From: Octopus vulgaris
Lineage: Eukaryota
DNA: 64,000 nucleotides
NCBI GenBank assembly: GCA_951406725.2
Contig: OX597818.1
Location: 3,410,001 to 3,474,000 of the forward strand
Reading direction: 5' to 3'
How positions within the stretch are numbered: position 1 is the stretch's first letter; each line of letters begins with the position of its first letter. The notes beneath the pieces are model-generated. The model had not been told where the DNA came from. It ran no database searches and saw only the letters and a program-made list of their open reading frames with translations. Shown in pieces: positions 6,261-49,193 of the stretch. Position numbers and translations under genes: made by a program.

Positions 6261-6664
6261 AATACTAAGTTGGCCCCCGAATTGGTTGGCTATCTACGTC
6301 TCTTTATATCGAGCACAAACGTCTGCGTGTTGTTTAATATACATCTCAGGAAAAGCAGCCTTCTTATATTGAATAAGCTTGGTGGCAGCCTGGTGGTACA
6401 TATCATTGTGACAAATGTAAAACCGCCTATAATTGTATTGTTATATATTTTAATTACCAAGGTGACCCACGACTTGACTGGATATCCACGCCGGTTATAT
6501 CGAGCATAAACTTACACGAAGAATAGGCAGGTGTGTGCATGTGTGTTGTTTTATATAATTTTGGGGTACATTAATATATTTCTACATTTGGTAAGTTTTG
6601 GTAGCACTTATAACTGTATTGTTACATATGTAGCGGGTATGATTCTTGGCCACTACTTCTGGTC

Positions 6665-6835
6665 TGATCTGAGGGTAGCCCTTAAAAGGACGGTTAACGC
6701 AATTAGATCCGATCCAAGAATAGTCCTAAAAAGGACTGTTATCGCAATTAGATCGGATCTGAGAGTAGTCCTAAAAAGGACTGTTATCGCATTCAGATCA
6801 GACTTGAATTAGCCCTGAAAAGGGCTGTGGTCGTA
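6665..6835 (-). repeat. Four ~45-bp tandem units in the 3' LTR, each with a 16-nt histone-type stem-loop (three units in the 5' LTR, ~11695-11840)
   Basis: On -: AGCCCT-TTTC-AGGGCT (6811-6826), AGTCCT-TTTT-AGGACT (6767-6782 and 6722-6737), CGTCCT-TTTA-AGGGCT (6677-6692). Spacing 44-45 bp. Confidence 0.85.
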
Positions 6836-7559
6836 ATCAGCAAAACTGGACAGACGAAAGCAGTAGCTGAAGTGACGAGCAGACAAGAGGTGCAAGTTTA
6901 TACAGCGATTTTTTTCAGGCGTGAAATAGCAGTACAAAGGTTCGAGGCGGCGTGAGTGGCGAGCGTGGCAGGCGAGAGGGACACGATTTACATCAGTCGA
7001 GTGCCAAAAAGCCAACTGCCTTTACAGCGATTTATGATGTCTATTTATACAAAAATATCAGCAGTGATGTTCAGCCAGTGTCCAATAGAATGGCAGGTAG
7101 GTAGCTTTTGTCCAATGAAAGGTCAGGCAAGTCGCTAGGGGTAGTTGCTTTGTTTTCTCTAGTGATGACAGATGTATTTCCGGTGTCCGTGCAAGTTACT
7201 TCCGGTGACTGTACATAGCCCTCTGCCAGATCTTTTGTACAACAAAAGAGCGACAAATCGTACAGTGATAAGTCAGAGAAAAGAATATATATATATATAT
7301 AAACAGATAAAAATGAACTACAAAATGATGAATGAGCCTGTTGGATTTGGGTTGATCTGCCTGTGGATTGCGTGACAAAAAGTCCCACGGGCAGAGAAAC
7401 TACCGGTAATAAATAATGTTTTTCGTGACAATGAGAGCATGAGCACATGGTCACTAAATGGTGCAGGAAAAATTAGAAACAAGCAATATAGGAATGTTTC
7501 GCAAGAAGCATGCTTGTGAAACTCGGTTTTAACGATATTTCACGTATTGTGCCAACTTG

Positions 7560-10500
7560 GCGGGCCAATGGACACGTCGTCCACTTCTTGTGACTGGAAA
7601 TGAAACAGGTGGTTTGCTGGGAATGCAAGCTGCTGGAGTTTCTGGCGTAGAAACCGTAATCGTGTCCATGAAGGCTTTTTTTAATCTGTCCACACTGACA
7701 GAATTCTGTTTACCATTTTGATCGATGACAAAATATTTTGGGTGTTTCTAGGACACGGTAAGGGCCAGAATATTGAGGTTGAAGATTAGTGGAGATGGTG
7801 TCATTTCTAACAAAAACGTGCGTCCAATCGCTAATGTCTACAGGTACATGTGTGTTCGTGTTCTGTTGACGGGTGCTCGCAGGGGCAAGGTGAGACATGT
7901 ATTGACGAAGTCGGTGTACGTATGATCCTGGGTCTGGAACGTCCTGAGGAGAGATGGGAGCAACCATCTGACCAGGTAGAACCAGGGTGGTGCCGTACAT
8001 TAATTCTGCAGGTGTGTGTCCGAATTGTTCCTTAACGGTGGAACGGATGCCAAGAAGGATGAGTGGCAGGTATTCAAATCAGTGGGTCTTGTCTGGGTAC
8101 GCCTTTATTGCAGCTTTCAATTGACGATGTGTTGATAAGCTGTTGTGCGGATGTGTTTACATCCTAACAGACGAGTCAGTTCCCTGAAGAGATGGGAATC
8201 AAATTGGCGTCCTCTGTCGCTGGGGCGCTATAACGTGATACCCAGTGTAAAACCAAAGTTTTAGCCACTGTTTCCGCTGAGGTATCACTTATAGGAAAAG
8301 CCTCAGGCCAACGGGAAAAACGATCAATGCAGGTGAGCAAGTGAGTGCAGTTCTGTGATAATGGTAAAGGTCCGACGATGTCGATATGCACATGCTGAAA
8401 ACGTGCATCAGGTTGCGCGAATGTGCCGAGTGGCGTTTTGATGTGTCTGTGGACTTTGGCCTTCTGGCAGGCAATGCAGTCGCGCACGTCCTTGTTAATG
8501 TTGGCCCACACAAAACGAGCAGAAATGAGTTTCTGTGTAGCCCGGTCGTTCATGACCAGTAGAAATGTCGCACCAAATTTGTCCCGGAGAAGAAGGAATG
8601 GAAACTTGCTGAAACTTGAGGGATGGCGAATCTCGGAGTTTGATAAACTCTTGGTCAGTCTCTTGGTCAGCTGCAATTTGATGAAGGTCGATGCCTGAAT
8701 CCACATGTATTGAGTTCAGCTGGATTCGGGACAGAGCGTCAACTGCTACGTTGTCTGATCCCTTGATATACCGAATATCGGTTGAATATTGGGAGACAAA
8801 GTCCAAGTGGCGAAGTTCTCTCGGTGAATGTCGATCCGGTTTGGTACGGAACGCATAAACTAGTGGTTTATGGTCCGTGTAGATTACGAAATCCGATTCT
8901 TCGAGCATGTGGCGAAAATGCTTCACTGAAAGGTAGGTTGCCAAGAGTTCACGGCCGAATGTACTGTATTTGGTTTCAGTGGGTTGCAACCGCTTAGAAA
9001 AGAAGGATAAGGGTTGCCAAACGCCGTCGACATATTGTTGCAAAACGCCTCCAACCCCCATGTCTGATGCGTCTACTAGCAGCGAAAGAGGAGCGCCAGA
9101 CCTGGGGAAAACGAGCATGGAAGCGTTTTCCAGCATTTCTTTGAGACCGTTGAAAGGTGTTAATTCTTCCTCGTTCAACGTTATGTCTTCATTTTTCCGA
9201 ATCCGGTTGCGAAGAAGGTCCGTGAGGAGTCTGGCTGCGTCAGCACAATGAGGGATGAAACGCCTATAAAAATTAACCAAACCGAGGAATTCACGTAGTT
9301 TCCGAAGTGATGTAGGTGCTGGAAAATTGCGGATAGCGTCTACTTTCTCAGGAAGTGGACGAATGCCGTCTTTATCAATCATGTGCCTGAGAAAAGACAG
9401 TGAAGGAACGCCGAGAACGCACTTGCTTGGGTTGATGATGATGCCGTACTCGGCCAAACGTTGGAACAGAAGATCCAAGTGCTTCTCGTGTTCTTGCTCA
9501 GAAGTACTTGCTACTAGTACATCGTCGATATACGCGTACACAAAAGGTAGGTCACGTAATACGGTGTCAATGAACCGTTGAAAAGTTTGTGCAGCGTTGC
9601 GCAGACCGAACGGCATTCGCAGGAATTCGAATAAACCGAACGGTGTTGTGATTGCCGTCTTTGGAATATCAGCAGGCTCCACAGGTATCTGGTTATATGC
9701 TCGCACCAAATCTATCTTAGAAAAGATGCGTGCGCCTTGCAGAGAGGCAGAAAAATCGTGCAAGTGAGGTACAGGGTAATTATCGGGCACTGTGGTATTG
9801 TTGAGTGCACGATAATCCCCACATGGTCGCCAGTCGTTCTCTGTTTTTTTGGGGAACAAGGTGTAGAGGTGCAGACCAGTTGCTGGAGGAAGGGCGAATG
9901 ATTCCAAGGTCCAGCATGTGCTGAAATTCCTGTTTGGCGATTCGCAATCGGTCTGGAGACAGTCTCCTTGGTCGGGCAGCTGTGGGTGGTCCTCGTGTCT
10001 CGATGTGATGTGTGACACGATGTTTAATGGGTCCATCTTTACATACCGGGCGAGTGATGTCTGGATATTTCTGGAGAATGCTGTTGTAACGCGAAGGCTC
10101 TGACTGACAGATTACAGGGCTCACTGTCGGTTGCGTGGTAAATATACCTCTCACAGTGAGGTTTGTGGTGGTGTCAATAAGCCTCCGGTTCTTCATGTCC
10201 ACCAGAAGGTTGAAGTGGTGGAGAAAATCGGCTCCTAAGATAGGGGTCGGTAGGTCTGCCACGACGAAAATGAACTGGAAACTACGCCTCAGGCCTAGAT
10301 TCAGGGTCAGTGATTTCTCACCGAAAGTCGGAATTGACGATCGGTTCACTGCCTGCAGAAAGGACGGTGCTGAATGTCGTTTGCCCGAGACTAGTGAAAC
10401 AGGAATAACACTAACCTGGGCTCCTGTATCTACGAGATAGCGGATACCCGTCGCTTGGTCGTTAATAAAAAACAGACGATTTTTTTTTCTCAGTGCCAGG
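7560..10500 (-). pseudogene. pol: Gypsy-1 pol (protease, RT, RNase H, integrase), frameshifted
   Basis: ORFs 9780-10349, 8495-10036, 8176-8706 and 7710-8000 carry the canonical motifs in PR-RT-RH-IN order. Confidence 0.95.
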
Positions 10501-11115
10501 GATGAAAGTCGTCACTAGCCTGGTCTACCCGTTTCCCTGGGTGGTATTCAGGAAAGAGCACGGGGCCTTGCACTTAGATGCCCGTGCGCCGAATTCTGCG
10601 TGATACCAGCAGATGTTGCCAGACACACGAGTTTGACTGGGACTTCTGGATCTTCGACGGTGAGTGGACCTTGATGAACTGTTGCTGCGCCGCCGGTGTG
10701 TTTCCAAGGTCCAGTTTTCTAGCTTGTTTGTGAGGGCTTTAATTTGACCAGCCTGCTCTCTGATCATAGCTCGCAGCTCTGCAATCTCGGAGGTAGAGTC
10801 TGAGGACGCTTCGAATGGGTTCGTCCGATGGTTGATTTGTACCACAGAAGAAAAGGGGTTTGACACCTCAGCGATTCTATCTGCGACACGCGCAAGTTCC
10901 TCCGGGGTTGCTGTGTCGTTGGTCGACGCCAGATTGCCCTGCATTGGTAAGGGCAGGCGCTGTAGAAAAAGCCGTTTCAGGACCTCTTCTGACAGCGGTT
11001 GGTCATCAGCTGTCTCATTTTACGCAGCAGTTGGGACGGTTTTCTGTCCCCCAACTCTTCTGCAGACACGAGTTGGTTGAGTCGTCTCTGCTGTGATGCG
11101 GTAGTTCGCATTATT

Positions 11116-11500
11116 GGAAGCACTCCGTCGGTTACGACGATGAGGGTTCCGGTTGATCCGAATCAACGGAACAGCCTGCTCGTGAAATTAACGTGTAAGT
11201 GACTGAGCACTCCACAGACACGTGCACCCTTAACGTAGTTCTCGGGGATATTCAGCGTGACACAGAGAGTGACAAGGCCGGCCCCTTGAAATACAGGTAC
11301 AACAGAAACAGGAAGTAAGAGTGAGAGAAAGTTGTGGTGAAAGAGTACAGCAGGGATCACCACCATCCCCTGCCGGAGCCTCGTGGAGCTTTAGGTGTTT
11401 TCGCTCAATAAACACTCACAACGCCCGGTCTGGGAATCGAAACCGCGATCCTATGACCGCGAGTCCGCTGCCCTAACCACTGGGCCATTGCGCCTCCACT
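11116..11500 (-). mobile_element. Full-length young tRNA-derived SINE inserted in gag
   Basis: tRNA-like head TGGCCCAGTGG (A box) ... GTTTCGATTCC (B box). Exact 12-bp TSD GTTCGCATTATT at 11104-11115 and 11501-11512. Confidence 0.92.
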
Positions 11501-11641: not shown

Positions 11642-11654
11642 GTCGGGGTCACCA
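11642..11654 (-). promoter_or_regulatory. Primer-binding site, tRNA-Trp type
   Basis: TGGTGACCCCGAC 2 nt downstream of the 5' LTR, complementary to the 3' end of eukaryotic tRNA-Trp. Confidence 0.8.
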
Positions 11655-12196
11655 ATTGTAGCGGGTATGATTCTTGGCCACTACTTCTGGTCTGATCTGA
11701 GGGTAGCCCTTAAAAGGACGGTTATCGCAATTAGATCCGATTCAAGAATAGTCCTAAAAAGGGACTGTTATCGCAATTAGATCGGATCTGAGAGTAGTCC
11801 TAAAAAGGACTGTTATCGCATTCAGATCAGACTTGAATTAGCTGGACAGACGAAAGCAGTAGTTGAAAGGACGAGCAGACAAGAGGTGTAAGTTTATACA
11901 GCGATTTATTTCAGGCGTGAAATAGCAGTACAAAGGTTCGAGGCGTCCGGTGTCCGTGCAAGTTACTTCCGGTGACTGTACACATATATTAAATACCAAG
12001 GTTGCTCTCGATTTGGCTGGTTATTCACGCCGGATATATCGAACACAGACTTACATAAAATACAGTTGTGTGTTTGTGTGTGTGTGTGTGACGACATGGC
12101 TGAGATGGAATTGTGTGACAATCATGCATTTCTTATATGAGGAAGAACCCTCTATTGCAATTCTTCCACGTTTTAAAAAAATTCTTTAACTTTAAC

Positions 12197-22030: not shown

Positions 22031-23582
22031 TGATAATAATAATAATAATGATGATGATGGTGATGTTACATTTTTTTTACGGAACTCACAACTACGTGTA
22101 ACTTTACTACATTAGGGTGGAGCGAAAAATGCAACTTTCGAAATTGGTAACCAAGAATCGATATTTTGTTGCGAATTAGGGATAAAACAAAAGTGTATAA
22201 AGAACTTTATGGTTAAATATTTTTTTCGGGCTCCGCAATGGCAATTGAAAATTTTTTAAATCGCTATTTTTGGTCGAATTTTGGATTTCAGGAATTATAA
22301 GTTGTAACGAATACATATTTCTTCATAGCAGAATGCAAAACAGTAAATATAATATCCTTAGAAAGTTGTGTACCAATTTTCTATACAATTGACTAATATT
22401 CTGGGGTGTGAACTTATCTCCAGTGCCGCCGCAACGGCCGTTGCGTTAGAATGTACGTCGTACGGGTGTGAAGTTTTCTTCTTTGCACCTTGACTTTAGG
22501 TCATTGTATTAAAATTAACGATCGTGTTAAATTTAGTGTTGTTTACATTTAGTGATGACTAACAAGCCAATAACGCGTCATGATACTGAATGCCCAATAT
22601 TTGGTACTCCGTGTGATCTTAGCAAACGAGTTTTGCCAACTTACAAGGACATTCTAAAATGTGTTTTATTTGAACGAGAGAAAAAAAAGAATGTAGTTAA
22701 GAAAGATCCTTCAATTAAACAAATTGTCGAAATTGTAGCAGAAAGATAATTCTTCTTTGGCAAAAGGCATCCATCCCTTGTGTTATGACTGAGTCAGTTA
22801 AACCGAAAATCTTAAACTTTTATCCAAAGTACCAAGCATTACTAAAATCTGTGAACAATAAAAAAAAGTGTCCCATCTTTTCAAATAAAGTGTAATGTGT
22901 TTAAAAATAATGCAGCAAAAGATTTGACATTTCCTGTTGCAAGTGCAACTCATTTAAAAACTGCAGTTGTAGTAGAGACAAAGAAATACCACAGAGAGAA
23001 CAGGATCAATGGACAAATCGAAAAATGATCATTGGCGGAGTAGTTCAATCAGAAGTTGATTAGAAAGTATCGGTCAGATCACAGTCATCCCTCTATGTTA
23101 GCAAAGGATTCTGAATTGATAGCGTTTTCATCAAACAGTGAATCTGGAAATGGATCAGCAGGCGAAGATGAAGATTTTCCAATTCCATTTTCCATGAAAC
23201 GAAAAGACGTCAGCAAAAACGTAAGTTCAAAAGCACCAATAAAACAAATGAAATTCCCAGAACTAGCTCCTGCCTGTAACAGCACCGGTATGTCAGACCG
23301 TGCTGCTGCTCTTGTTACAAGTTCGGTCATCAGAAACTTAACGGCAAGTACATCTGGTAAATGTTTCTTCGTTATAGACAGATCGAAAGTAAGGCGGAAC
23401 GATCCAGATAAATGTAAATCCCTGCAGCAGGAACGTAGGCCACATAAACCGTTGTCTGCCGTGTATTTTGATGGAAGGAGGGAGACAACCCCCATAAATG
23501 GGAAAAAAATGGGTGAGAAAACAATTCAGGGAGAACACATTTCATTGATAGAAGAACCTGAGTTCCGCTGTCTTGGACACTT

Positions 23583-26500
23583 TGTAGGATTTTTACGTGA
23601 TATTCGCACTTGTAGGGTGCGTCACATCTCTTTACATAGTTGTAGAAAGGGAAAATAGCAGGAACACGAATCTCCGAACGAATAACAATAATAATTTATT
23701 TTCGCCGAAATAAGCATTTCATCTCTGGACATCGGTAGCATGGACGCCTGGGGTAGGAAACAGCAGAGTCGGTTTAAATCACAACTGTTGAAAGCATTCT
23801 TCACAACTCGCCAAGTCGTATTCGCCTTCACACGGAGCTTATCTGGTTTGCGTCTGTTGCCTTCACACGGAACATGTCTGGTTTGCGTCTGTCTCTCTCG
23901 GTAGCAGAAAGCAAAAGACAGAATAGCGGTAAAAGTTAGCTGCTGATGGTTACTGCACATGCGCATAAGGGACATCCGGCAGGCCTACCGGAATACACTA
24001 ATCCTTGCACATGCGCAGATGAACATCCCAAAATGGCGTCTGAAACCTGGCGTTACTACAAGGCTTCTCCTTGAGTGCGGAGCACGAAAATATAAAGATT
24101 GTAGTGCGACCAGAAGCAAGATGGCTACCGATCACCTACAAGATGTGGCACAAAATATGATAACTCAAAAAGAAAAAAAGAATTACAATATAAATGAGCA
24201 TGCAAAAGAAAAAAATTTTCTTCAAGAAATGTTCAATAACAAAACATTGAAATGTCCAGTATGCAAGAGAACACCTGTTTGTACACACGTACACATTATG
24301 TATGCACGACGGCCATGTCTATCGTCTATAACTAATGTCTCTTTTGTCTTCTACAAAGCGTTTGTAATATACATTATCCCTCTCTGAGAGATATCACGCA
24401 AATGAGGACGTGTCAGTTAACAGCCATCCTTCGGCTGCCTAGGACCAGTTGTGTCCGCTGTTCTGATTGGTATTGGTATTCTTTTATTCCATGTATCTTT
24501 GGCTTCTTTTGTAGGCGACCGTGCGGCGTTCAAAAAGGAGACATTTCGTCACCACCCCCTTTACGTACGGTCGCTCTACAAGTTCGTAGACACGAACACA
24601 CAATAGAAAATGTCAAAAGTTTCTTGGGCCAGTGAACAGTTCGGTCAGTCCTGATGACATAGGGTCTGCTCGAGGCAGGTTGCGACGACGAAGGTGGTGT
24701 TGTAGGTGCTGGTGTTGTCAAAGGTGCATGTGTAGGTGATGGTGTTGGCAAAGGTGCACGTGTAGGTTCAATAGTGGGCGTGGCAGCGGTGTCATCGAAA
24801 GATGTGGACACCTCAAAATATGCTCTTTTAAGTCGATCTACAGAAACGGTCTCCATACGACCATTCATATCGATTGTAAAAACTTTGGGTGTGCGAGAAA
24901 GCACACGAAAGGAGAAACAAGAGGTCCCTTGATAGAGTTATCTCGAACAAAAACATGCGACCAAGAGTCAATATCTGATGGGACATGAGAAGGTGAAGAT
25001 TGGTCCCGGGAATCCATGGGCGGAAGATTAGAAAAATAGGTGCGAAGTCTGGCGATGTATGACGCCAGATTATTAAGTTGTAAAATGTCTGGTACCAACA
25101 TCGTACCAGACAATGCGAGTGTGGTACCAAACAGCAGCTCTGTGAAACCCAGATCTGCCTTGACAGCTGTACGACAGCCAAAAAGCAGGATTGGCAGAAA
25201 TTCAGTCCAGGACTGCGGATCTGGAGAGGCACGTAGAGCGGCCTTGAGCTGTCTATGAAACCGTTCGACCATCGCGTTGGAAGCTGGATGGTAACTGGTC
25301 GTGCGAATAGGATGCACACCTAGAATTCGTGACAATTCACGAAATAAAGAAGCTTCAGTAGTTAAGCTGGACGGAACTCCGAAGCGGGAAATCCAGTTAG
25401 AGACAAAAGCTTGAGCAACAGATTTAGCAGAAATGTCTGCTATTGGAATGGCTTCTGACCAACGGGAGAAGCGATCGACACAGGTCAAGGGATAAAAGAA
25501 CCCGCGACTCACAGGCCATGGTCCAACCAGGTCAATGTGGACATGGCGAAAATAGGCCTCTGGAGGAGAAAACTGTCGAAGCGGAGCACGAATGTGCCGT
25601 TAGATCTTGGAGCGTTGGCACTTGGAACGACTACGTGTCCAAGAAGTAATTGTGCGACGCATATTTGGCCAGAAAAACCGAGCAGTAATAAGCTTAAGTG
25701 TGGCAGTGATGCCCGGATGCGACAAAGAGTGCAGGGCGTCAAACACTGAGCGTTGGGGATTCTCAGGCACGAGTGGCCTGGGAGGACCAGTAGAGGTATC
25801 ACAAAGAATAGTGCCTTCAGCAAATTGGCAACAAGAAAACCTTGGCGAAGTTAGATGAAAGAGAACAGACTGGAAGACGAGAAATAGCGTCATCAGGAAC
25901 GTTCTCTTTTCCAGGTATGTGACGCATGTCACTGGTAAACTGTGAAATAAAATCCAAGTGACGGAAAGCACGAGGCGAGAGTTTGTCCGTCTTAGACGAT
26001 AGGGCAAACGTAAGAGGCTTGTAATCAGTATAGATCACAAAATCTCGCCCTTTGAGTTGATGTTGAAAATGACAAATTGACAGGTAGATCGCCAATAGTT
26101 CGCGATCAAAGGTGCTGTACCGCCGCTCAGCTGGTTGTAACTGGCAAGAAAAGAAAGCCAGAGGTCGAGTCTGATCGTCCACTGTGTGTTGCAGCACAGC
26201 ACCGATTGCAGTGTCCGATGCATCCACTGTTAACGAGAGTGAAGCATCGGGAACCGGATGTGCAAGCAACGGGACAGAAGCTAATTCCTTCTTGATGGAC
26301 ATGAAAGCAGATAATGCTTCAGCAAAGAGGGTGAGTGGACCGTCCTTTTTAGAGGTGCCCTTTAGCAGCTGAGTCAGAGAAAGTAGCTTATCCGCACACC
26401 CGGGTATAAAACGTCGGTAGAAATTAACCATGCCGAGATGATGTCTCAACTGACGCAAGGAAGAAGGAAGTGCGATGCGTTGAATGGCATCGACTTTTGA

Positions 26501-29500
26501 CGACAGAGGTCTGATGCCACTCGAGTCAATATGATGACCTAAAGAGTCTAGAGAAGATTGTCCGAAAACACACTTGTCGGGATTAATGCGTACACTATAG
26601 GCGCGAAGACGCTGAAAGAACTGAGACAAGTGCCGGTGATTTTCACGGGTGTCGCTCGCAATGAGTATTTCATCAACATAAGCAAACACAAATCAAGACC
26701 GCGGACAACTTCATCAATAAACCGCTCGAACATGCTGGTAGCGTTCCGCAAAACAAAACTCATATAGAGAAACTCAAAACACCCAAAAGGAGTGGTAATA
26801 GCAGTCTTCGGAACATCGGCTGGGTTGACCGGTATCTGGTGATAAGCACGAATGAGGTCAACCTTTGAAAAATTGATACAGCCATAAAAGATTCGCTGAA
26901 AAGTCCTGAAGATAAGATTCCATATTGGGTAGCGGTCTGCGTTGAAGCGTCTATAATCTCCTACCGGGCGAAAATCAGACTCCCCTTTTCGCGCCAACTG
27001 AAGGGGAGACGCCCATGGGATGGTGGAGGGGCGTATCAGGCCAAGCTGAAGCATGTGCTCAAACTCGGCCCTAGCCGTTTTGGGACGGTCAGGCACAAGA
27101 CGCCGTGAGCGCGAAAAAACAGGCGGCCCAGTAGTGGTGATAAAATGGAGGATCGAGTGGGCAGGCTTTGCCGGCTGAAAGGTAATGTCCACTAGCTCCG
27201 GAAAAGGAGTCAAAAGAGAATGAAAACCATTTCCAGAGGTGGCAACAAAAAATGTCGGGCTAAGAACCGCATTGGTAGAACCTCTAGTCGGCGGGGAGAG
27301 CGACGTAGTACCCTCGAGAAGCCTCCAACGCTTGACATCTAACAATAGATTAAAATTATTCAAGAAATCAGCAACAACAAAAACCCATTGAAAGTCTCGA
27401 CGAAGATGAATATCGAGGCGTAAAGAAACCTGACCAAAAGTAGCTATGGGAGACGAGTCAATAGCGTGCAAAACAATGGAAGAACGCTTAGGCTTGTCTC
27501 CAGTGAGACGAAGAGGCCAAATGCTACAACAAGAACCGGTGTCAACCATGAAGAATTTCTTTAACAAAGAATGCACGATAAGTAGGAAGGGAAAAGGAGG
27601 AAGGTGCCGTGCCCAACTCCTCCGAAACTAATTTCCCGAAAGCTTAAAACTGCACGGCTGGATGCACTTGCGTGCTTTATCAGCAAATATGGAATGGTAC
27701 CAGCACAGCCCGGAACGTGGCCTAGAGGCACGAGAAGCAGAACGACTCCGACTTCGCGAAAAACGCCTATTTTCCCGGCATAGCTCATCCATACGTCGCG
27801 TGAACGCGTCAAGTTTGTCGAAAATGGCGTCATGTGACACAGGATAGGATTTAACTGAGGCTGTCGAAGGGGCCTCAGTACAAACGCACGCGCCACACGA
27901 CGATGGCTGGCCGGAAAGTTCTAAAATTTGATCTGCCATCGTGGAAATCTGGTCCATGGTGTTGTGTTCAAGAGCCGTGGCCAAAATCGTCCGTATATTG
28001 GAGGGCAATCTGGAAAAGAAAATTGTGCGTAACAGTGGCGCATCAGTTGAGTCACCGCTCAACTCACGTAATCTGCGCAAAAACTGCGACGGGATTCTGT
28101 CCCCCAACTCCTCATCCGCCATTAATTCATTGAAACGGCTCTCCTCAGACCTGGTGTTGCGGCGTAATATTTCCGCTTTAACGAACGCATAAGTGGCGTC
28201 TGGGCTAGGATCTGTAACTAGATCCCTAGCAGAGGTGGCGAGTGGTGCGGGCATTCCACAATACAATAACTACAATTGTTGCGCGGGGGAAATGCCATGA
28301 GCCGAAAAATAAGCCTCAATTTATGCAAACCACAGAGCTGGATCCCCTGTAAACAAAGGTAACGATGGCAGGGACATGATGTGTATTCAGGTTTTTCCAA
28401 TGACTCTTAGAGAAAAACGAATAGAAAGTGGCGATGAGGAAAAAACAGCAAATTCTCCGAGATGAAACACGAGAAATAAAGAAACCAACCAGTGAACCGA
28501 CAGAAATGTTTTTTTTTAAATTTTGTGGAGCAGTGTGTGCACAAAACAAAGAAGAAAAAATATATCTTAAGAAACATTTTTTTTTCTTTTGATTTGTGTA
28601 CTATAAGCAGGAGGGAAAAATTCACCAACCTTCGTCGCGCTGAAAAAAAATATATGAGAAACAAGAAAAACACCAGAATGTTAGTGTGCGCGTGTGTACT
28701 GTGTTTTAAAGTTGTTCTGCTATTATTTTTTTTTCTTCTTAAGAAGCTGGCAAAAAAAAAAATAAATGTTTCAAGAAGACGAAATTCAAAAGATAATGTC
28801 ACTGCTAAAAATAGCAGCTGAAAAGAAAAAAACCGTATAGAAGAATGTGGTTGAAAGAAAGATGGTTCCACAACCATGATTAATGAGCACGTGGTGTCGG
28901 CGTTGATGTTTTCCTCTGTCGAAATTGTGGCGGCTGGATGTCGGTTGAAGAAATAGCGCGAGGCCGACAGACTTGTGATTTCGGCGTCAGTGCATAAGCT
29001 CCGTTTTTTTCTATTCATAATTGTGAAAACTGGCGCTAGAGAATCTGTTTCTGCTAATGTTCTTCGCGGGATCACCAATTTGTGGAATTTTTATGTGATA
29101 TTCGCACTTGTAGGGTGCGTCACATCTCTTTACATAGTTGTAGAAAGGGAAAATAGCAGGAACACGAATCTCCGAACGAATAACAATAATAATTTATTTT
29201 CGCCGAAATAAGCATTTCATCTCTAGACATCGGTAGCATGGACGCTTGGGGTAGGAAATAGCAGAGTCGGTTTAAATCACAACTGTTGAAAGCATTCTTC
29301 ACAACTCGCCAAGTCGTATTCGCCTTCACACGGAGCTTATCTGGTTTGCGTCTGTTGCCTTCACACGGAACCTGTCTGGTTTGCGTCTGTCTCTCTCGGT
29401 AGCAGAAAGCAAAAGACAGAATAGCGGTAAAAGTTAGCTGCTGCTGATTACTGCACATTCACATAAGGGACTTCCGGCAAGCCTACCGGAAGACACTATT

Positions 29501-41914: not shown

Positions 41915-44900
41915 CCACGAATCGGGGCAAGGCACGACGGTCAGTCAATAAGTGATTACAGAGGCGATAAACACCTCTGCAACCTCCGCCCTCCCTTTCA
42001 AGGACAGCTTCCGCTCAGACCAGGTCTGAGTTAGGAGAGCCACCTCGCTCCAATTCTTCTCTATCTAGAGATCTGGACCTAACCAGATTCCAAGCATTTT
42101 CACCGGCCTTTCCGTCTAACGTCCTACGACGCTGTCGGAAGACATCGACTTGCCCCTCCAGGTGCCGAGTTGCAAGCCGACCGATTTATCCCGGTTGACT
42201 TTCGCTCCTTCCACCGCTTCGTAGTCACTTAAGGCCTCACCCACCCACTGTAGGTGCTCGACCCGGGATACGATGACGGTGATGTCGTCCGCATACGCCG
42301 AAGCTGACTTTCCGCACCCTAGATCTTGCGGAGTGCCCCTCATAGTTTCCAACCTCCTCAGCAACGGTTCGAGGACCAAAACGTAAAGAAGCGGGGAGAG
42401 AGGGCACCCTTCAATGCGGAACGGCTCCGAAAAGAAACCGTTCACCCGAACTACCGATTCGATGTTGCTGTATAAAGCGTTGATCCATCCGCGGAAGGTC
42501 TGGCCAAAGCCAGCCGCCGCGAGGACCGCCGCCAGATACTGATGGTCCACCCTATCGAACCTTTCGATTGGTCCAAGTGTACCATAGCCCCATCCTTGCC
42601 AGGAATCCTATTTACCCTTTCTAAGGCATAGCGTAGAAAGTGGGGATTGTCGTGGACGGTCCTTCTAGAGATGGCGCATGTTTGCGCCTCGCCAACAAGT
42701 TCACCCGCGCCAACCTTTTTGCTAAGACCTTGGCCAAAATCTTCAACTCTGCGTTAAGCAGAGTGATGGGCCGAAAATTATCAATTAAATCCCCCTTGTT
42801 TGGGTCCTTTCTTAACAGCGCTACCACCCTTCGGCTCACAGACTTGGGAATTCTCCCGTTCTGCTGCCAGTTGGTGTACACGCATGCAAGTAGGTGCCCA
42901 AACAAGTCTGGCATGCTACTATAGAGTTCATAAGGCAGACCATCGAGTCCCGGCGATTTGTCCCCGCCGCAGTCTGCCAACACATCCTCGACTTCCTTGG
43001 CTGTGATCGGCGCCTCACAAGATTCCGCATCCGGCCTCGGTAGACGCGGCGAACCGGCTAGGAAGTCTGCGAGCTTCTCCCGCGCTCCAGTCCGCCGCTC
43101 CTCCCGAATAGCTGGGCGAAATGATCGTGAAACACCTTTCACATCTCCACGGGTTCGTTTGGGTCCGTCAAAGATCGAATGGTTGAGTTGTTGCCACGCT
43201 GGCCCTCTACCACCCGGGCCCATCCGGCTGCGTTGATCCCTTCCTGCCTCATTGCACGGATCTTAGCTCTGACAATGAACCCTTCGTGTATAGCATTGAG
43301 ATGTTGGTCGAGTGCCAACCTCGCCGCTAACACTTTCGATGCACTGTCTGACCTCATTGCCTCATGTACTACCTTAACTAGTTCCTTTTCTACTTTGTTT
43401 CTAGCACTAGCTAATTCTTTGCTAAACCTAATTGACTCAAATTTGATGGCTCTTTTCAGGGCGTACCACCATTTGTTGGATCCGGTTAACGCCCTCATTA
43501 CTAATTGTCTAATCCGCTTCCTGTAGGCTTCACTGTCCAATATTGACTTGTTTAGCTTCCAGTAACCGTTGCCTCGTCTACACATACTATCTATGTCGAG
43601 CGTACAGGTCACTAATTTGTGATCGCTGTAGCTGACGATATGGTGTTGTGGACAGCTAAGTATTTTCTTATCTTTCCTTTTAGTTATGATTCTATCTATG
43701 TAAGATCTGGATGACCCGTCGTTTCTTGCCCAGGTCCACGCTGAAACGTCTGGGTGGTCCAGTCTGAATCGATCTGCCAACTCGAAACGACTTAGCAGAT
43801 CATTGAGGTGAGGTATTCTTTCTCGAGCCAACATAATCTACGCGTGCATCGCAAATTATGATGAAGTCACCTAGCAATACTAACGCGTTCGACGTGCCGA
43901 GAAAATTCTCTAGGCTTTTGAAGTAATCTTTCTGCCCGGCATTTCCTTCGCAGGGAGCATAGACAGCGACCAGCCCGAACACTTTACCACTGCTGTGCGT
44001 CACATCCAAAACGACCAACCTGCCTTCCGGATCTATAAAGACAATTCTAATCTCTAATTGCAGGTTTTTTCTGACCAGCACTGCCACTCCTCCGCCCCCT
44101 CCCGGTCGACAGGGAGAAACGTATTTCTCGTAGCTGTTTAGAAGGGGCGAAAAAGCCTGCAGCCCACTCAGTCTGGATTCGGTAATTACAACTACATCCA
44201 AACGATGCGACCCAAGGTCGTTAAGTAGGTAGCCTTGCTTCCAATACGACCCCAGGCCGTGAATATTTAAACAACCGAGTTTAAACGAGAATGTGAAAAA
44301 TAAGTCGAATGTTTAAAACTTACTGTTTTAACGGGAGAGAGGGTGTGGTTTCACCCTCCTCTTTTCTGTCTGTGTGTGTTGTGGTTTGCGAGGTCATTTT
44401 TTTCGCGAATTGCCTGTACAGATGGCTCGAAAAGTTCATCTGTTTTCTCCCGCTGTCGGATGTACTTCAGCAATTGGTGTGCGCGACGTGGCTGCTATTT
44501 CTAGCGGTGTGGTCGTTGTCTTCGGCGTCGTGCTTGCCTCTTCTGCTGCGTTGGCTGTCTTCTTCTTACAGTTCGACCTTATGTGGCCTTTCTCGCCACA
44601 TTTGTAACACCTGGGCTTTCTCCCCTCGACTACCACCATCAGGCTGGTATTTTCCCCAATTGTAAGGGAACTGGGCATTTTTTCTAAGTCTGAGGGGTTT
44701 GCTTGGATGACAAGGTCTAAATCTTGTCCAACCCAGTTCATGTGGTGGTATCTCTTAGTTTGAAGGATTGTAATTTCTCCCTCTTTGCCTATGAGAATAG
44801 CGGCTACCACCCAGGCCACATCTATTTCGGGTGGTATATCAGTGACCGTGACTTTTGAAGTTCTCCTTCCTAAGTAAGTCGGCAGGAGAACTACTTCTTC

Positions 44901-45606: not shown

Positions 45607-48600
45607 TGTTATGCATTATTTCGTTCTCGATGGGCTGATAGACAACTCAATGAAGGCATTGTTATTATTTACGTGTTTATTTACTTTTTCTTGTTACACG
45701 AACTGTCAACATTCCGCGTAGTAATACATATATACTTTAGACATATACTTTAGCGGGCCATTATCAAATACCATTCTTGGCTCTCTGTGAACAGATCTAC
45801 TCCAATAATTTGCCATGGCCTTCTTGGGATGTCACTAGATATCATTTCCTCCTTTTGTTGTTTCTGTACTTTTGACAGATGTGGCATGTAGAAACTATCT
45901 TTTCTATGTCTTTTTACATGCCTACCCAATATACTGCTGACTTGGCTCGGAGCTTGCATTTCTCCATTCCTAGATGCCCTTGATGGATCTTGTCAAGAAT
46001 CTCCTTTTGCATTGACTTGGGTATAATTATTCGGGATCCAGCCATCAGAATTCCATTCTCCACTGATATATTATCATGGATGGCCCAATATTCACGAATG
46101 AGGGGCTGCACCTGATGTCTCTTTTCTGGCCAGCCCTGAATCACCATCTGAGTAAGGAGCTGGAGTTCTTCATCTTTGCTGGTCTCCTCTTTGACTTCTG
46201 CTAGTTTTGTGGTTGTTACATTTACAATGTGGTGGCCCTTTATGCTTAGTCCTTCCATCTCCTGTTTATCATGTGAGGGTAGTCTGGAAAGAGCATCCGC
46301 CAATATCAGGTCTTTTCCTGGCTTGTACCTGATATCGTAGTCGTATGTTTGAAGCCTCAACAGTAATCTTTGCAGTCTGGCTGGTGCTTTCGTGAGGTTT
46401 TTTCTATGTATTTGTTCTAGCGGGCGATGGTCTGTTTCAATGTTGAAATGTCTGCCATACAGTTCCCTTTCAATATTTGCGTACCTTGTCCCCGTAGGAG
46501 AGAGAGCTTTCGAGGCATATGCAATGTGTTTACCTTCCTGTATCAGTGCTGCGCCAACTCCTCTCATAGAAGCATCGACTTGGAGTATTACTGGTTTGCG
46601 TCTGTCATAGTACTGCAGAGTTGTCTCCTTATTGATGAGCTTTTTGATTACTTTGAAATCCTGTGTGTGTGAAGTACACCAATCAAACTCTACGTCATCT
46701 TTGTTTAGTTCTCGGAGATTTGCAGTGTGATCGGCCAGCTTGGGTATGAAGGCTCCCATGTAGTGGATAAGTCCCAGGAAGCTCCTGAGTTCCTTCTTGT
46801 CTTTGGGTTCTTTGATGTCTCTGATGGCTTCCACTTTAGCGGGGTCTGGTTTAACTCCCTCTACAGAGTATATAATTCCAAAGAATTTGCACTCCTTTGC
46901 TTTTATCACACACTTGTCTGCATTGAGTTTGATACCTGCTTGTCGGGTTATCTCCATAGCTTCGTGTAAATTCAGGTCATGTGTGGTCTCATCCTTGCCA
47001 TGCATTTGGATATCATTTGCTACCCAATTGCTCCCTTGCAGCCTTGGTAGATCTCACCTTCAATCCAAATGGGAGTCGATTGAATCGATATCTGCCAAAT
47101 GGTGTGTTGAAGGTAGTGAGCATGGATGACTCTTTGTCTATCTTTACATTCCAGTACCCATTACTGGCATCCAGTTTGCTGAATAATTTGGATCCAGCCA
47201 ATGATGGTGTGATTTCTTCAAGGGTTGGAATTAGATGGTACTCTCTTTTTAATGCCTTGTTCAGGTCCCTTGGGTTGAAGCATATCCGTAGGGAACTATT
47301 GGATTTTTCTTTGATTACAATTGAATTCACCCAGTCTGTTGGTCGTGTCACTTTGGTGATTATTTCATTTTTTTCCATCCTGTCCAACTCTGCCTTCAGC
47401 TTCTCTTTTAGTTCTAGAGGGACGCAGCGAGATGGCTGAACAATTGGTTTGATATTGGGGTCGACTGTTATATGGTATCGACATTTCACAAAGCACCCGA
47501 CTGTATCGTCAAAGCATTCAGAGTACATGCTTATCAGTTCTTCTTTGTTTGTGATTGGTGGTCGGTCTTTGATAGGAATATCTCTGTCAATCCTGCTCGG
47601 AGCTGCCTTCACTTCACCATTGATTGACACAATATTAAGCTTTTTACATGTATTGTGTCCAAGTATTGCTGGTCCTTCTGTTCTTGTGACATAAAAAGAA
47701 CGCTTGATTATTTTTCTTTTGTGTGTCCCTGAGATTGTTGTTTTGCCCAGTTGTGGAATCCTGGTACCTCCGTACGCATAGAGGATTACATCACTTGGTG
47801 TGAGGATTCCTTCTTTGATTTTATCCTCTTGTGTCATGTATTCTGGGAACATCTTTTTGTAGAGGTTGACAGGCAAGATATCACTCTGGGCTCCAGTGTC
47901 AATCTTTAGCCTTAAGTCAATGTTTATTCGTTTCTTGCCAGACTTCTTTTGTATTCGTATCGTTGTGTATGCCTCATTTTTTTTCTGGTCGTCATTTCCC
48001 ATCTCATGCACATTTATTGTGCTGACTGCCAAGAATTCCTCCTCTGAGGTGTTTTCTTCTTGTTGTTGGGCATGTAATCTCTTTGCTTTCTATTTCTGCT
48101 CCTCTTTGAAAATTGGGGCTTGTATTTCTGGGATTTTGTTAGCCTACACATTTTTTCCCAGTGGTTGGGTTTTCCACATGCTTTGCAGTGTGTGCCGAAT
48201 GCAGTACTGGCATGTTCTTTGTTTACGGGTATGTTTCGTCTTATGTCTAGATACAATATCTACACTGCTGCCTAGTACGCTTGTTTGTAAAGTAAGTGAG
48301 GCCATTTGTTTGGTAGTGGCTTCGAATGCTCTTGCAGTGTCTACTGCTTCTATCAACTGGAGAGCGTCCTTACCTATGACGGATTTCTGGACTTCTTTAT
48401 GAGCACACCCCCATATTAGTTGATCAACAATTCTTTCGTCCTTGTCTTTGAATTTGCCTTTTTCGGCAACATTCTTTAGTCTGGACAGGAAATTGTCAAT
48501 CGTTTCTTGTGGGTCTTGTTTCAGGCCCTGGAATTCGTATCTGTGAATTCTATGGTTTGATCTGGGCTCTATGTGCCTTTCAAATATCTCTAAAGGTGTG

Positions 48601-49193
48601 TCTGGCTTATTGCAATCCGATTCTGACATTTCCCAGCTATTGAATATGTCTAGGTCCTTCTCTCCCGTCCATAAAAGGGTGTAGCTTACCTTTTCATCGG
48701 CGGTTGTACCTTTCAGGAAACTTTTGAAAGCTAGTTGAGTTTTCTGTTTGAATTTCTTAAATGCTTCCACGATATCATCGGAGTCCCAGTTCATGATTGG
48801 ATGTAAATTCATCTGTACGGCGACGGGAGCCGCCATTTTGGATCCTCGTGTGTGTGTGTCCGAAGATGAAGCGATGTTTTGTTTGTTAAATTTCTGGTTT
48901 GTTGTGTTCCTGTTTTGTTGTAAAGGCACAGTTTCCGATTAATTATTTACCGCTGCCACCATGTTATGCATTATTTCGTTCTCGATGGGCTGATAGACAA
49001 CTCAATGAAGGCATTGTTATTGTTTACGTGTTTATTTACTTTTTCTTGTTACACGAACTGTCAACATTCAGCGTAGTAATACATATATACTTTAGACACA
49101 GTTCGTACTGTTTACTAGCAAAATAGTGCCAAAAGTGGGGATGTATTCTACACATGTATACCCACGTATACACATGGATATGAATGTGTAACA
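45607..49193 (-). mobile_element. Ty3/Gypsy provirus 4 (Mag-like); deletion removes most of IN and part of the 3' LTR
   Basis: 5' LTR 48962-49193 (TGTTA...TAACA); partial 3' LTR 45607-45742; TSD GTTAC/GTGAC; PBS TGGTGGCAGCGG (tRNA-Leu type) at 48950-48961. gag 48144-48929; PR KIDTGAQ; RT KLDASNGYW; RH QVDAS; IN HQGHLG...YW. Confidence 0.95.

What the first reader, a model, noticed from the sequence alone, without database searches (positions are those of the whole stretch)
6665..6905. Gypsy LTR carries a tandem array of histone-mRNA-type 3' stem-loops instead of a poly(A) signal
Seen: in the element's sense (-), downstream of TATAAA (~6898-6903), four 45-bp units each hold a 6-bp stem / 4-nt loop: AGCCCT-TTTC-AGGGCT, AGTCCT-TTTT-AGGACT (x2) and CGTCCT-TTTA-AGGGCT. 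Each has an A/C-rich 5' flank (TAAC, CCAC) and an A immediately 3' (AATT, ACTC, ATTC, ACCC). The third stem pair varies while staying paired (C-G, T-A, T-G). No AATAAA lies between the TATA box and the LTR end. Known: replication-dependent histone mRNAs end in GGYYCU-UYUN-AGRRCC-ACC bound by SLBP; the second G-C pair, the top U-A pair and loop U1/U3 are the key determinants, and all are kept here; only the basal pair differs. Inference: this retrotransposon may mimic histone mRNA, recruiting SLBP (and possibly U7) for non-polyadenylated 3'-end formation, S-phase or oocyte-coupled stability, or translation. I do not know of this being described for LTR elements.
Basis: partly seen in the sequence, partly recalled or inferred. 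Interest (0 to 1): 0.85.

Follow-up and report, generated by a model that had tools for sequence, protein, structure and literature searches.

The report
Histone-like hairpins in retrotransposon leaders
Several retrotransposon families in this animal genome carry one to eight copies of a short palindrome predicted to fold like the hairpin that ends histone messenger RNAs; it likely sits near the start of their RNA and likely borrows the host's histone-RNA binding protein, and it does not replace the poly(A) signal, which most copies keep.

Summary
The four hairpins are there, in the 3' LTR (6629-7215, minus strand) of a CsRn1-type Ty3/Gypsy element. The 'instead of a poly(A) signal' part is wrong. 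AATAAA stands 83 nt upstream of the array in 27 of 30 family copies and in this element's 5' LTR; this 3' LTR has a private change there. The likelier TATA box is at 7041-7049, which would put the array in U5.

The hairpin itself looks selected. The same 16-nt stem-loop recurs in three other LTR groups of this genome (B, D, E) that align to this LTR nowhere else. There it starts 41-44 nt after TATA, in 1-8 tandem copies. Across groups, G2-C15, C5-G12, U6-A11 and loop U1/U3 hold, while pairs 3-4 and loop positions 2 and 4 change with pairing kept, the pattern of histone stem-loops. CArG or STAT sites fit only 4 and 1 of 15 recurrent variants.

Against SLBP binding: the basal pair is A-U, not G-C; Histone3 scores are below cut-off; B/D/E lack the 5' flanking adenines. 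Best reading: a 5'-leader histone-stem-loop mimic that likely recruits SLBP after transcription. Binding and RNA ends are untested.

The parts
6629..7215 (-). 3' LTR, 587 bp, TG...CA ends; 4-bp target-site duplication TATG flanks the element
11657..11982 (-). 5' LTR, 326 bp; a 229-bp deletion removes the upstream TATA and a 33-bp deletion removes unit 1; 318 of 325 aligned bases match the 3' LTR
6811..6826 (-). stem-loop unit 1 (C-G third pair private to this copy)
6767..6782 (-). stem-loop unit 2 (Histone3 21.9 bits, below cut-off 34)
6722..6737 (-). stem-loop unit 3 (Histone3 18.6 bits)
6677..6692 (-). stem-loop unit 4 (basal C.U mismatch), ends 48 nt before the LTR end
11705..11811 (-). units 2-4 in the 5' LTR (unit 3 carries one extra base), directly upstream of the primer-binding site
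7041..7049 (-). likely TATA box (TATAAATA in 23 of 30 copies, variant in 2, region absent in 5)
7012..7020 (-). initiator-like CAGTT, inferred transcription start (not mapped)
   Evidence: inference
6909..6914 (-). position of the family poly(A) hexamer; AAAAAA here, AATAAA in 27 of 30 copies
11905..11910 (-). AATAAA in the 5' LTR
11642..11654 (-). primer-binding site; read as tRNA-Trp type (recalled; the CsRn1 clade uses tRNA-Trp per PMC2582038)
10525..11019 (-). 3' part of gag with CX2HX9CX3C (CHCC) motif; gag is interrupted upstream by a very high-copy insert at about 11115-11500
8176..10511 (-). pol in broken frames: protease, RT, RNase H, integrase zinc finger and core
7216..7230 (-). purine-rich tract before the 3' LTR (polypurine tract, inferred)

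Best explanation
[quoted passage not shown] SHOWN: the array and its variants; a conserved upstream AATAAA; the same hairpin in otherwise unalignable LTR groups B, D and E, 41-44 nt after TATA, in 1-8 copies; substitutions that keep pairing; a host SLBP gene. INFERRED: the RNA starts near 7017 and is polyadenylated about 20 nt after AATAAA, so in family A the hairpins occur only at the 5' end of the genomic RNA, just before the primer-binding site. In B/D/E they open the R region. The feature the groups share is therefore position in the capped leader. PROPOSED, untested: SLBP bound near the cap gives the RNA histone-mRNA-like handling (export, translation or oocyte storage) timed to S phase or oogenesis, when germline insertion is possible, and extra copies raise avidity to offset the non-canonical basal pair. 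Step odds: selected RNA hairpin about 0.85; leader position about 0.8; SLBP as ligand about 0.5.
For: Recurrence: the pattern built from families A and B has 223 genome matches against 6 for the reversed control. In copy sets found by LTR or U3 searches, at least one unit occurs in 30/30 A, 17/20 B, 29/30 D, 20/20 E and 4/5 A2 loci. The A LTR aligns to B/D/E only over a 19-nt hairpin stretch, and A and B RT-RNase H are far apart on a quick tree. Pattern of change: among 15 variants seen at 3 or more loci, C5-G12, U6-A11, loop U1 and loop U3 are 15/15 and G2-C15 is 13/15; pair 3 is U-G 8 / U-A 7; pair 4 is C-G 9 / U-A 5; loop 2 is U or C, loop 4 is C, A or U. Twelve of 15 meet all histone rules. 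The three failures come mainly from one cluster of duplicated copies. Pair counting on 17 LTR rows plus 3 host rows: 95.8% paired, covariation 0.372, 0 of 500 shuffles as high. G-C at stem position 2 and U at loop position 3 are the diagnostic histone features (bioRxiv 10.64898/2026.10.14.759114, passages), and SLBP specifically reads that G (PMC12775136, passages). Family A flanks resemble the host's: A at -2 in 130/133 units, A at -3 in 102/133, A at +1 in 132/133. The host encodes an SLBP RNA-binding domain.
Against: All 12 host histone stem-loops examined have a basal G-C pair; the recurrent LTR variants have A-U (12 of 15) or a mismatch (3 of 15). Histone3 scores are below cut-off in family A and absent in 7 of 7 B/E stretches. 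Wild-type SLBP affinity is said to need two 5' flanking adenines (PMC10388802, passages); B, D and E have A at -2 in only 1/17, 2/40 and 1/49 units. There the flanks instead form a second covarying stem below a 2-3 nt bulge, a TAR-like shape. The double-sided change at pair 4 may be only one or two events, and the rows are related and were chosen by me. The nearest family by RT (C, 75-79% identity) and the 59-65% families have no such hairpin in their LTRs, nor do 80 related loci from other organisms (41 with a repeat pair, most from one assembly). No known SLBP function acts from a 5' leader (own knowledge). In 4 of 11 B/D/E folds the first hairpin loses to other pairings.
Confidence: 0.4

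Rival explanations
1. The hairpin is a selected RNA element for the element's own needs (Gag binding and packaging, dimerisation, or a TAR-like 5' hairpin for another host factor), and the histone likeness is incidental or a relic of an old capture.
For: Leader position next to the cap (B/D/E) or the primer-binding site (A). B/D/E carry a covarying lower stem (GGTT/AACC, AGTT/AACT, GCTT/AAGT, GTTT/AAAC) under a 2-3 nt bulge. The basal pair is never the host G-C in recurrent variants. B/D/E lack flanking adenines.
Against: The invariant positions are the ones histone stem-loops keep. A and B differ strongly in pol and share nothing else in the LTR, which fits a slowly changing host ligand better than a co-evolving Gag (inference). 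Family A has no lower stem but does have histone-like flanks.
Confidence: 0.3
2. The unit is a DNA element: a palindromic transcription-factor site repeated as an enhancer or insulator array (CArG box for SRF in A; TTCnnnGAA for STAT in B).
For: Units 2-4 in the window contain perfect CC(A/T)6GG boxes, and one B variant contains TTCnnnGAA. Tandem site arrays are common in LTRs (own knowledge).
Against: CArG fits 4 of 15 and STAT 1 of 15 recurrent variants. Mismatches in the palindrome are of the G.U type on the sense strand (8 variants with U-G at pair 3), and the spacer is strand-asymmetric (U-Y-U-N). Both are expected of RNA.
Confidence: 0.08
3. One reading: the array directs SLBP/U7-type cleavage and gives a non-polyadenylated 3' end.
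For: In family A the array lies near the LTR end, and unit 4 is followed by ACCC like the host's. The diverged A2 copies read AAGAAA rather than AATAAA at the homologous place. Poly(A)-minus ends were not examined.
Against: AATAAA in 27 of 30 A copies, 83 nt upstream and followed by a U/GU-rich tract. In B the hairpin is about 40 nt after TATA, with AATAAA about 270 nt further on. No host-like purine-rich element follows the units. Cleavage in the 5' LTR would truncate the genomic RNA (inference).
Confidence: 0.07
4. The structured array tunes polyadenylation, for example by damping poly(A) use in the 5' LTR, with or without a protein.
For: In A the array follows the poly(A) signal and is predicted to fold into a stable nested structure (-115.6 kcal/mol, z -5.0, inflated by the repeat).
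Against: In B it is hundreds of bases upstream of AATAAA, and loop-letter conservation is not needed for occlusion.
Confidence: 0.08
5. No function: a chance palindrome copied by tandem duplication.
For: Single chance hits to the rule occur: 12 in 1.22 Mb of metagenome loci (both strands; one of them a true histone stem-loop) and one at window 43448. Palindromes favour slippage.
Against: Shared by unalignable LTR groups, at a fixed distance from TATA in B/D/E, with pairing-preserving changes; 1 in 4000 by shuffle for the B LTR.
Confidence: 0.05

Closest known systems
Replication-dependent histone mRNA 3' stem-loop (Rfam RF00032), SLBP ligand
   Same: 16-nt hairpin with a 4-nt U-Y-U-N loop, G2-C15, C5-G12 and U6-A11, variable pairs 3-4; A/C-rich 5' flank and 3' A in family A
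   Different: Basal A-U or mismatch instead of G-C; tandem arrays; inferred 5'-leader position; poly(A) signal present; no host-like downstream element; below the Rfam cut-off
CsRn1 clade of Ty3/Gypsy (CsRn1, PwRn1, Boudicca)
   Same: CHCC Gag motif, tRNA-Trp-type primer site, PR-RT-RH-IN order
   Different: No histone-like hairpin in LTRs of the 80 relatives from other organisms or of sister families C and F; placement against named members was not tested
HIV-1 TAR and other retroviral 5' leader hairpins that recruit host proteins (recalled)
   Same: Groups B/D/E: hairpin at the inferred RNA start with lower stem, pyrimidine bulge and upper stem
   Different: 4-nt histone-type loop; no Tat-like gene seen; tandem copies; family A lacks the lower stem and carries the units downstream of AATAAA
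Cassandra, Helenus and Ajax TRIMs (PMC10886601, passages)
   Same: LTRs carrying a motif of a host RNA
   Different: Those carry 5S rRNA- or tRNA-derived Pol III promoters acting as DNA; the paper has no mention of histone (0 occurrences)
SLBP use by SARS-CoV-2 frameshift RNA (PMC12166091, abstract)
   Same: A parasite RNA reported to bind SLBP outside a 3' end
   Different: Not reported as a histone stem-loop mimic in the abstract; different element and host

Membership tests
Histone 3' stem-loop (RF00032) | 6-bp stem, 4-nt loop, G-C at stem position 2, U at loop positions 1 and 3, U-A closing pair | tested here: met
   4 of 4 window units keep these letters (unit 4 has 5 bp); 12 of 15 recurrent variants
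Histone 3' stem-loop (RF00032) | Basal G-C pair as in host histone genes | tested here: not met
   host 12 of 12 G-C; recurrent LTR variants 0 of 15
Histone 3' stem-loop (RF00032) | Score at or above the gathering threshold (34 bits) | tested here: not met
   21.9 and 18.6 bits in the window; no match in 7 B/E stretches
Histone 3' stem-loop (RF00032) | Adenines in the 5' flank, A at +1 | tested here: inconclusive
   met in family A (130/133 at -2), not in B/D/E (4/106 at -2)
Histone 3' stem-loop (RF00032) | Lies 25-60 nt after a stop codon, at the 3' end of an RNA without poly(A) signal, followed by a purine-rich HDE | tested here: not met
   in an LTR, downstream of a conserved AATAAA (A) or just after TATA (B/D/E); no host-like HDE
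Histone 3' stem-loop (RF00032) | Binds SLBP | not testable with these tools
   host SLBP gene present; binding needs an experiment
CsRn1 clade Ty3/Gypsy | Gag CX2HX9CX3C motif | tested here: met
   translation; definition from PMC2582038
CsRn1 clade Ty3/Gypsy | tRNA-Trp primer-binding site | tested here: inconclusive
   site present 2 nt after the 5' LTR; its match to tRNA-Trp is recalled, not aligned to a host tRNA
CsRn1 clade Ty3/Gypsy | PR-RT-RH-IN order, paired LTRs with TG..CA and target-site duplication | tested here: met
CsRn1 clade Ty3/Gypsy | RT groups with named CsRn1 members | not tested
   the tree holds no named reference element
CArG box (SRF site) | CC(A/T)6GG kept across copies and relatives | tested here: not met
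   4 of 15 recurrent variants

The most novel reading that the evidence does not exclude
A lineage of CsRn1-type retrotransposons has turned the histone mRNA stem-loop into a multivalent 5'-leader element (up to eight copies) that hijacks host SLBP. This would couple retrotransposon RNA to the S-phase or oocyte histone programme, and may compete with histone mRNAs for SLBP: a transposon mimic of histone mRNA acting from the opposite end of the RNA.
Probability: 0.35. Interest if true: 0.88.

Novelty: new variant of a known kind. Interest (0 to 1): 0.66.

Why it matters
The histone stem-loop/SLBP pair is treated as almost exclusive to histone mRNA 3' ends. A transposon lineage that keeps the SLBP-read letters across unalignable LTRs and repeatedly multiplies the hairpin would be a case of parasite mimicry of a cell-cycle RNA signal. 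It would offer a way for retrotransposons to time themselves to dividing cells or oocytes. It also supplies natural variants (A-U base, bulged lower stem, 1-8 copies) that make 'what does SLBP do from a 5' leader' directly testable. Even if the ligand is not SLBP, this is a conserved cis-acting RNA element of invertebrate Gypsy LTRs that my searches did not find described.

Tried and rejected
RNA evidence: no RNA holder listed. Laying contigs of three runs guessed to be RNA and one of unknown kind gave no starts, ends or strand, and the loose-end table was swamped by the high-copy insert, so expression and RNA ends remain open. U7 snRNA: an Rfam U7 search of the genome found nothing and the controls were silent too, so it is uninformative. 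The careful tree did not finish; only the quick tree is reported, with 2 loci left out for short matches, and no clade test was run. No internal (gag-pol) region was found for groups D and E: 0 of 20 ten-kb stretches had an RT match, so they are tied to B by LTR similarity only. CArG and STAT readings were rejected as general explanations. The TATA at 6896-6903 was rejected as the promoter because it is not kept in A2. The structure paper on SLBP-RNA was not held, so the tolerance of SLBP for a basal A-U pair could not be read up. Earlier scan notes: three look-ups, nothing found.

Full report
WHAT THE ELEMENT IS. The finding lies in the 3' LTR of a Ty3/Gypsy retrotransposon on the minus strand, 11982 to 6629. 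It has protease, RT, RNase H and integrase domains in broken frames, TG..CA ends and a 4-bp target duplication. The two LTRs agree at 318 of 325 aligned bases; the 5' LTR has lost 229 and 33 bp. Gag ends in CX2HX9CX3C, which with a tRNA-Trp primer site marks the CsRn1 clade (PMC2582038, passages); the Trp reading of the site is recalled. The host genome has 2.8 Gb in 227 contigs; a cephalopod is my guess from size alone, untested.

THE OBSERVATION. Four hairpins stand at 6811-6826, 6767-6782, 6722-6737 and 6677-6692 and are predicted to fold together. Rfam Histone3 scores two of them at 21.9 and 18.6 bits against a cut-off of 34. The host's own stem-loops (12 examined of 48 matches, 33 over cut-off) all have a basal G-C pair and flanks such as CCAAC or TAAAC and ACC. 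Across 30 family loci there are 4-8 units per LTR (21 with four). The C-G third pair of unit 1 is unique to this copy, and unit 4 has a basal mismatch. A rule-obeying hairpin arises in 1 of 4000 shuffles of a family LTR.

THE POLY(A) CLAIM FAILS. The hexamer at 6909-6914 is AATAAA in 27 of 30 copies and in this element's 5' LTR; only this 3' LTR reads AAAAAA. A U/GU-rich tract follows. AATAAA with a GT-rich downstream stretch is the conserved layout of animal Metaviridae LTRs (PMC3601003, passages). The inferred layout is U3 to about 7018, R to about 6890, then U5 holding the array. One result points the other way: A2 copies read AAGAAA at the hexamer and have AATAAA only upstream of TATA. They share flanks, so they probably descend from one old insertion. 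RNA ends could not be mapped.

THE HAIRPIN RECURS IN OTHER LTR GROUPS. From 150 RT matches in the genome I fetched 40. Five loci of family B (RT 72-74% identical, LTR about 820 bp) carry the hairpin in their LTRs about 41 nt after TATA and about 270 nt before AATAAA. Family C (75-79%) and the 59-65% families carry none. A pattern drawn from A and B matched 223 places against 6 for the control and exposed groups D and E. These are LTRs related to B at about 70%, with the first unit 41-44 nt after TATA in most loci and tandem units of about 48-72 bp, up to eight. To avoid choosing by the hairpin I re-collected B, D and E by their U3: 17/20, 29/30 and 20/20 loci hold a unit. The A LTR aligns to B/D/E only over a 19-nt hairpin stretch. 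On a quick RT-RNase H tree (49 rows, 2 loci left out, careful search unfinished) A groups with hairpin-less C (SH-aLRT 98) and B sits on its own long branch. So the hairpin was either ancestral and lost in C, gained twice, or moved by recombination; I did not test which. Eighty related loci from metagenome contigs, 41 with a repeat pair and most from one assembly, show none in an LTR.

PATTERN OF CHANGE. Of 244 units detected without regard to pairing (a few are spurious), 15 variants occur at three or more loci. C5-G12, U6-A11, loop U1 and loop U3 are 15/15; G2-C15 is 13/15; pair 3 is U-G 8 and U-A 7; pair 4 is C-G 9, U-A 5, broken 1; loop 2 is U or C; loop 4 is C, A or U. Twelve of 15 satisfy all histone rules, CArG 4, STAT 1. 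The three failures come mostly from one cluster of duplicated copies. On 17 LTR rows plus 3 host rows, 95.8% of cells pair and the covariation score of 0.372 exceeds 500 of 500 shuffles. These rows are related and hand-picked, the basal-pair change comes from the host rows, and the pair-4 swap may be one or two events. G.U-type asymmetry and a strand-asymmetric loop favour RNA over a DNA palindrome. The kept positions are the diagnostic ones of histone stem-loops (bioRxiv 10.64898/2026.10.14.759114, passages; PMC12775136, passages).

AGAINST A SIMPLE SLBP STORY. No recurrent variant has the host's basal G-C. Wild-type SLBP affinity is said to need two 5' adenines and one 3' adenine (PMC10388802, passages). 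Family A has A at -2 in 130 of 133 units; B/D/E in 4 of 106. In B/D/E the flanks pair into a second stem with its own compensatory variants under a 2-3 nt bulge, a TAR-like shape. Engineered histone stem-loops set in three-way junctions, some with G.U pairs, still work (PMC5368982, passages), so a helical context does not exclude binding. The host has an SLBP RNA-binding domain at one locus.

MECHANISM. The common denominator of the groups is inferred position in the capped 5' leader, not the 3' end. I commit to a histone-stem-loop mimic that recruits SLBP to the retrotransposon RNA for histone-like export, translation or oocyte storage, with tandem copies adding avidity (0.40). Rivals: an element-specific packaging or TAR-like hairpin (0.30), a DNA site array (0.08), poly(A) tuning (0.08), U7-type 3' ends (0.07), neutral (0.05). 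SLBP acting together with polyadenylation has a precedent in maternal histone mRNAs (PMC11997800, abstract), and SLBP binding to a viral RNA has been reported (PMC12166091, abstract).

PRIOR DESCRIPTION. Full-text searches for retrotransposon + histone stem-loop + SLBP, LTR retrotransposon + histone mRNA + stem-loop + mimic, histone stem-loop + SLBP + transposable element, SLBP + virus and TAR-like + retrotransposon + LTR listed no paper whose title or abstract start describes this. I saw listings only for most hits, and the library lacks most subscription papers and Repbase notes. No supplements were read.

VERDICT. A real, probably selected RNA hairpin of histone-stem-loop type in the leaders of several LTR groups. 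It is not a member of RF00032 and not a replacement for the poly(A) signal; its ligand is untested. New variant of a known kind (a retroelement leader hairpin that would recruit a host protein); interest 0.66.

Noticed in passing
L113-L117, L122, L315 (for example G000:C7:29255.9-29257.9 kb): A roughly 1.8-kb element with a zinc-knuckle ORF, often in tandem, is inserted at the 5' arm of the group E hairpin unit in 6 of 10 loci examined (the query favoured such loci), with a duplication of about 15 bp at L116/L315. L121 shows a tandem junction carrying the same target-like sequence. Possibly a target-preferring non-LTR element that hits these hairpins.
   Followed up: partly
L276, L277, L284: The 3 of 20 group B copies without a whole hairpin all break off inside the hairpin's 5' arm or loop; a few D copies (L229, L230, L252) have the first hairpin deleted. 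The site may be a hotspot for insertion or breakage.
   Followed up: no
window 10531-10537 (-): GGGAAAC heptamer just before the gag stop codon, a likely -1 frameshift site joining gag and pol (motif recalled).
   Followed up: no
window about 11115-11500: Very high-copy insert with a tRNA-like head (by eye) splits gag; contig depth there is thousands of times that of the element.
   Followed up: no
window 6660-6810 (-): Spacers between the hairpins hold near-palindromic GATC-N-GATC motifs that are predicted to pair between units and scaffold the hairpins; possible dimerisation motif.
   Followed up: partly
L255-L259: An older, single-hairpin relative of this LTR (A2) recurs with the same flanks at five loci, apparently carried inside another mobile element.
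   Followed up: partly
window 23578-29375 and 45607-49098: Two further repeat-flanked Gypsy-type elements with RT and RNase H; no rule-obeying hairpin matched in their sense strand.
   Followed up: partly
window 43448-43463 (+): A lone histone-like hairpin, antisense within another ORF-bearing stretch; taken as chance.
   Followed up: no
L097:1991, L104:2007, L136:5512 (oriented coordinates): Group E LTRs carry an additional hairpin copy about 450-500 nt downstream of the leader array.
   Followed up: no
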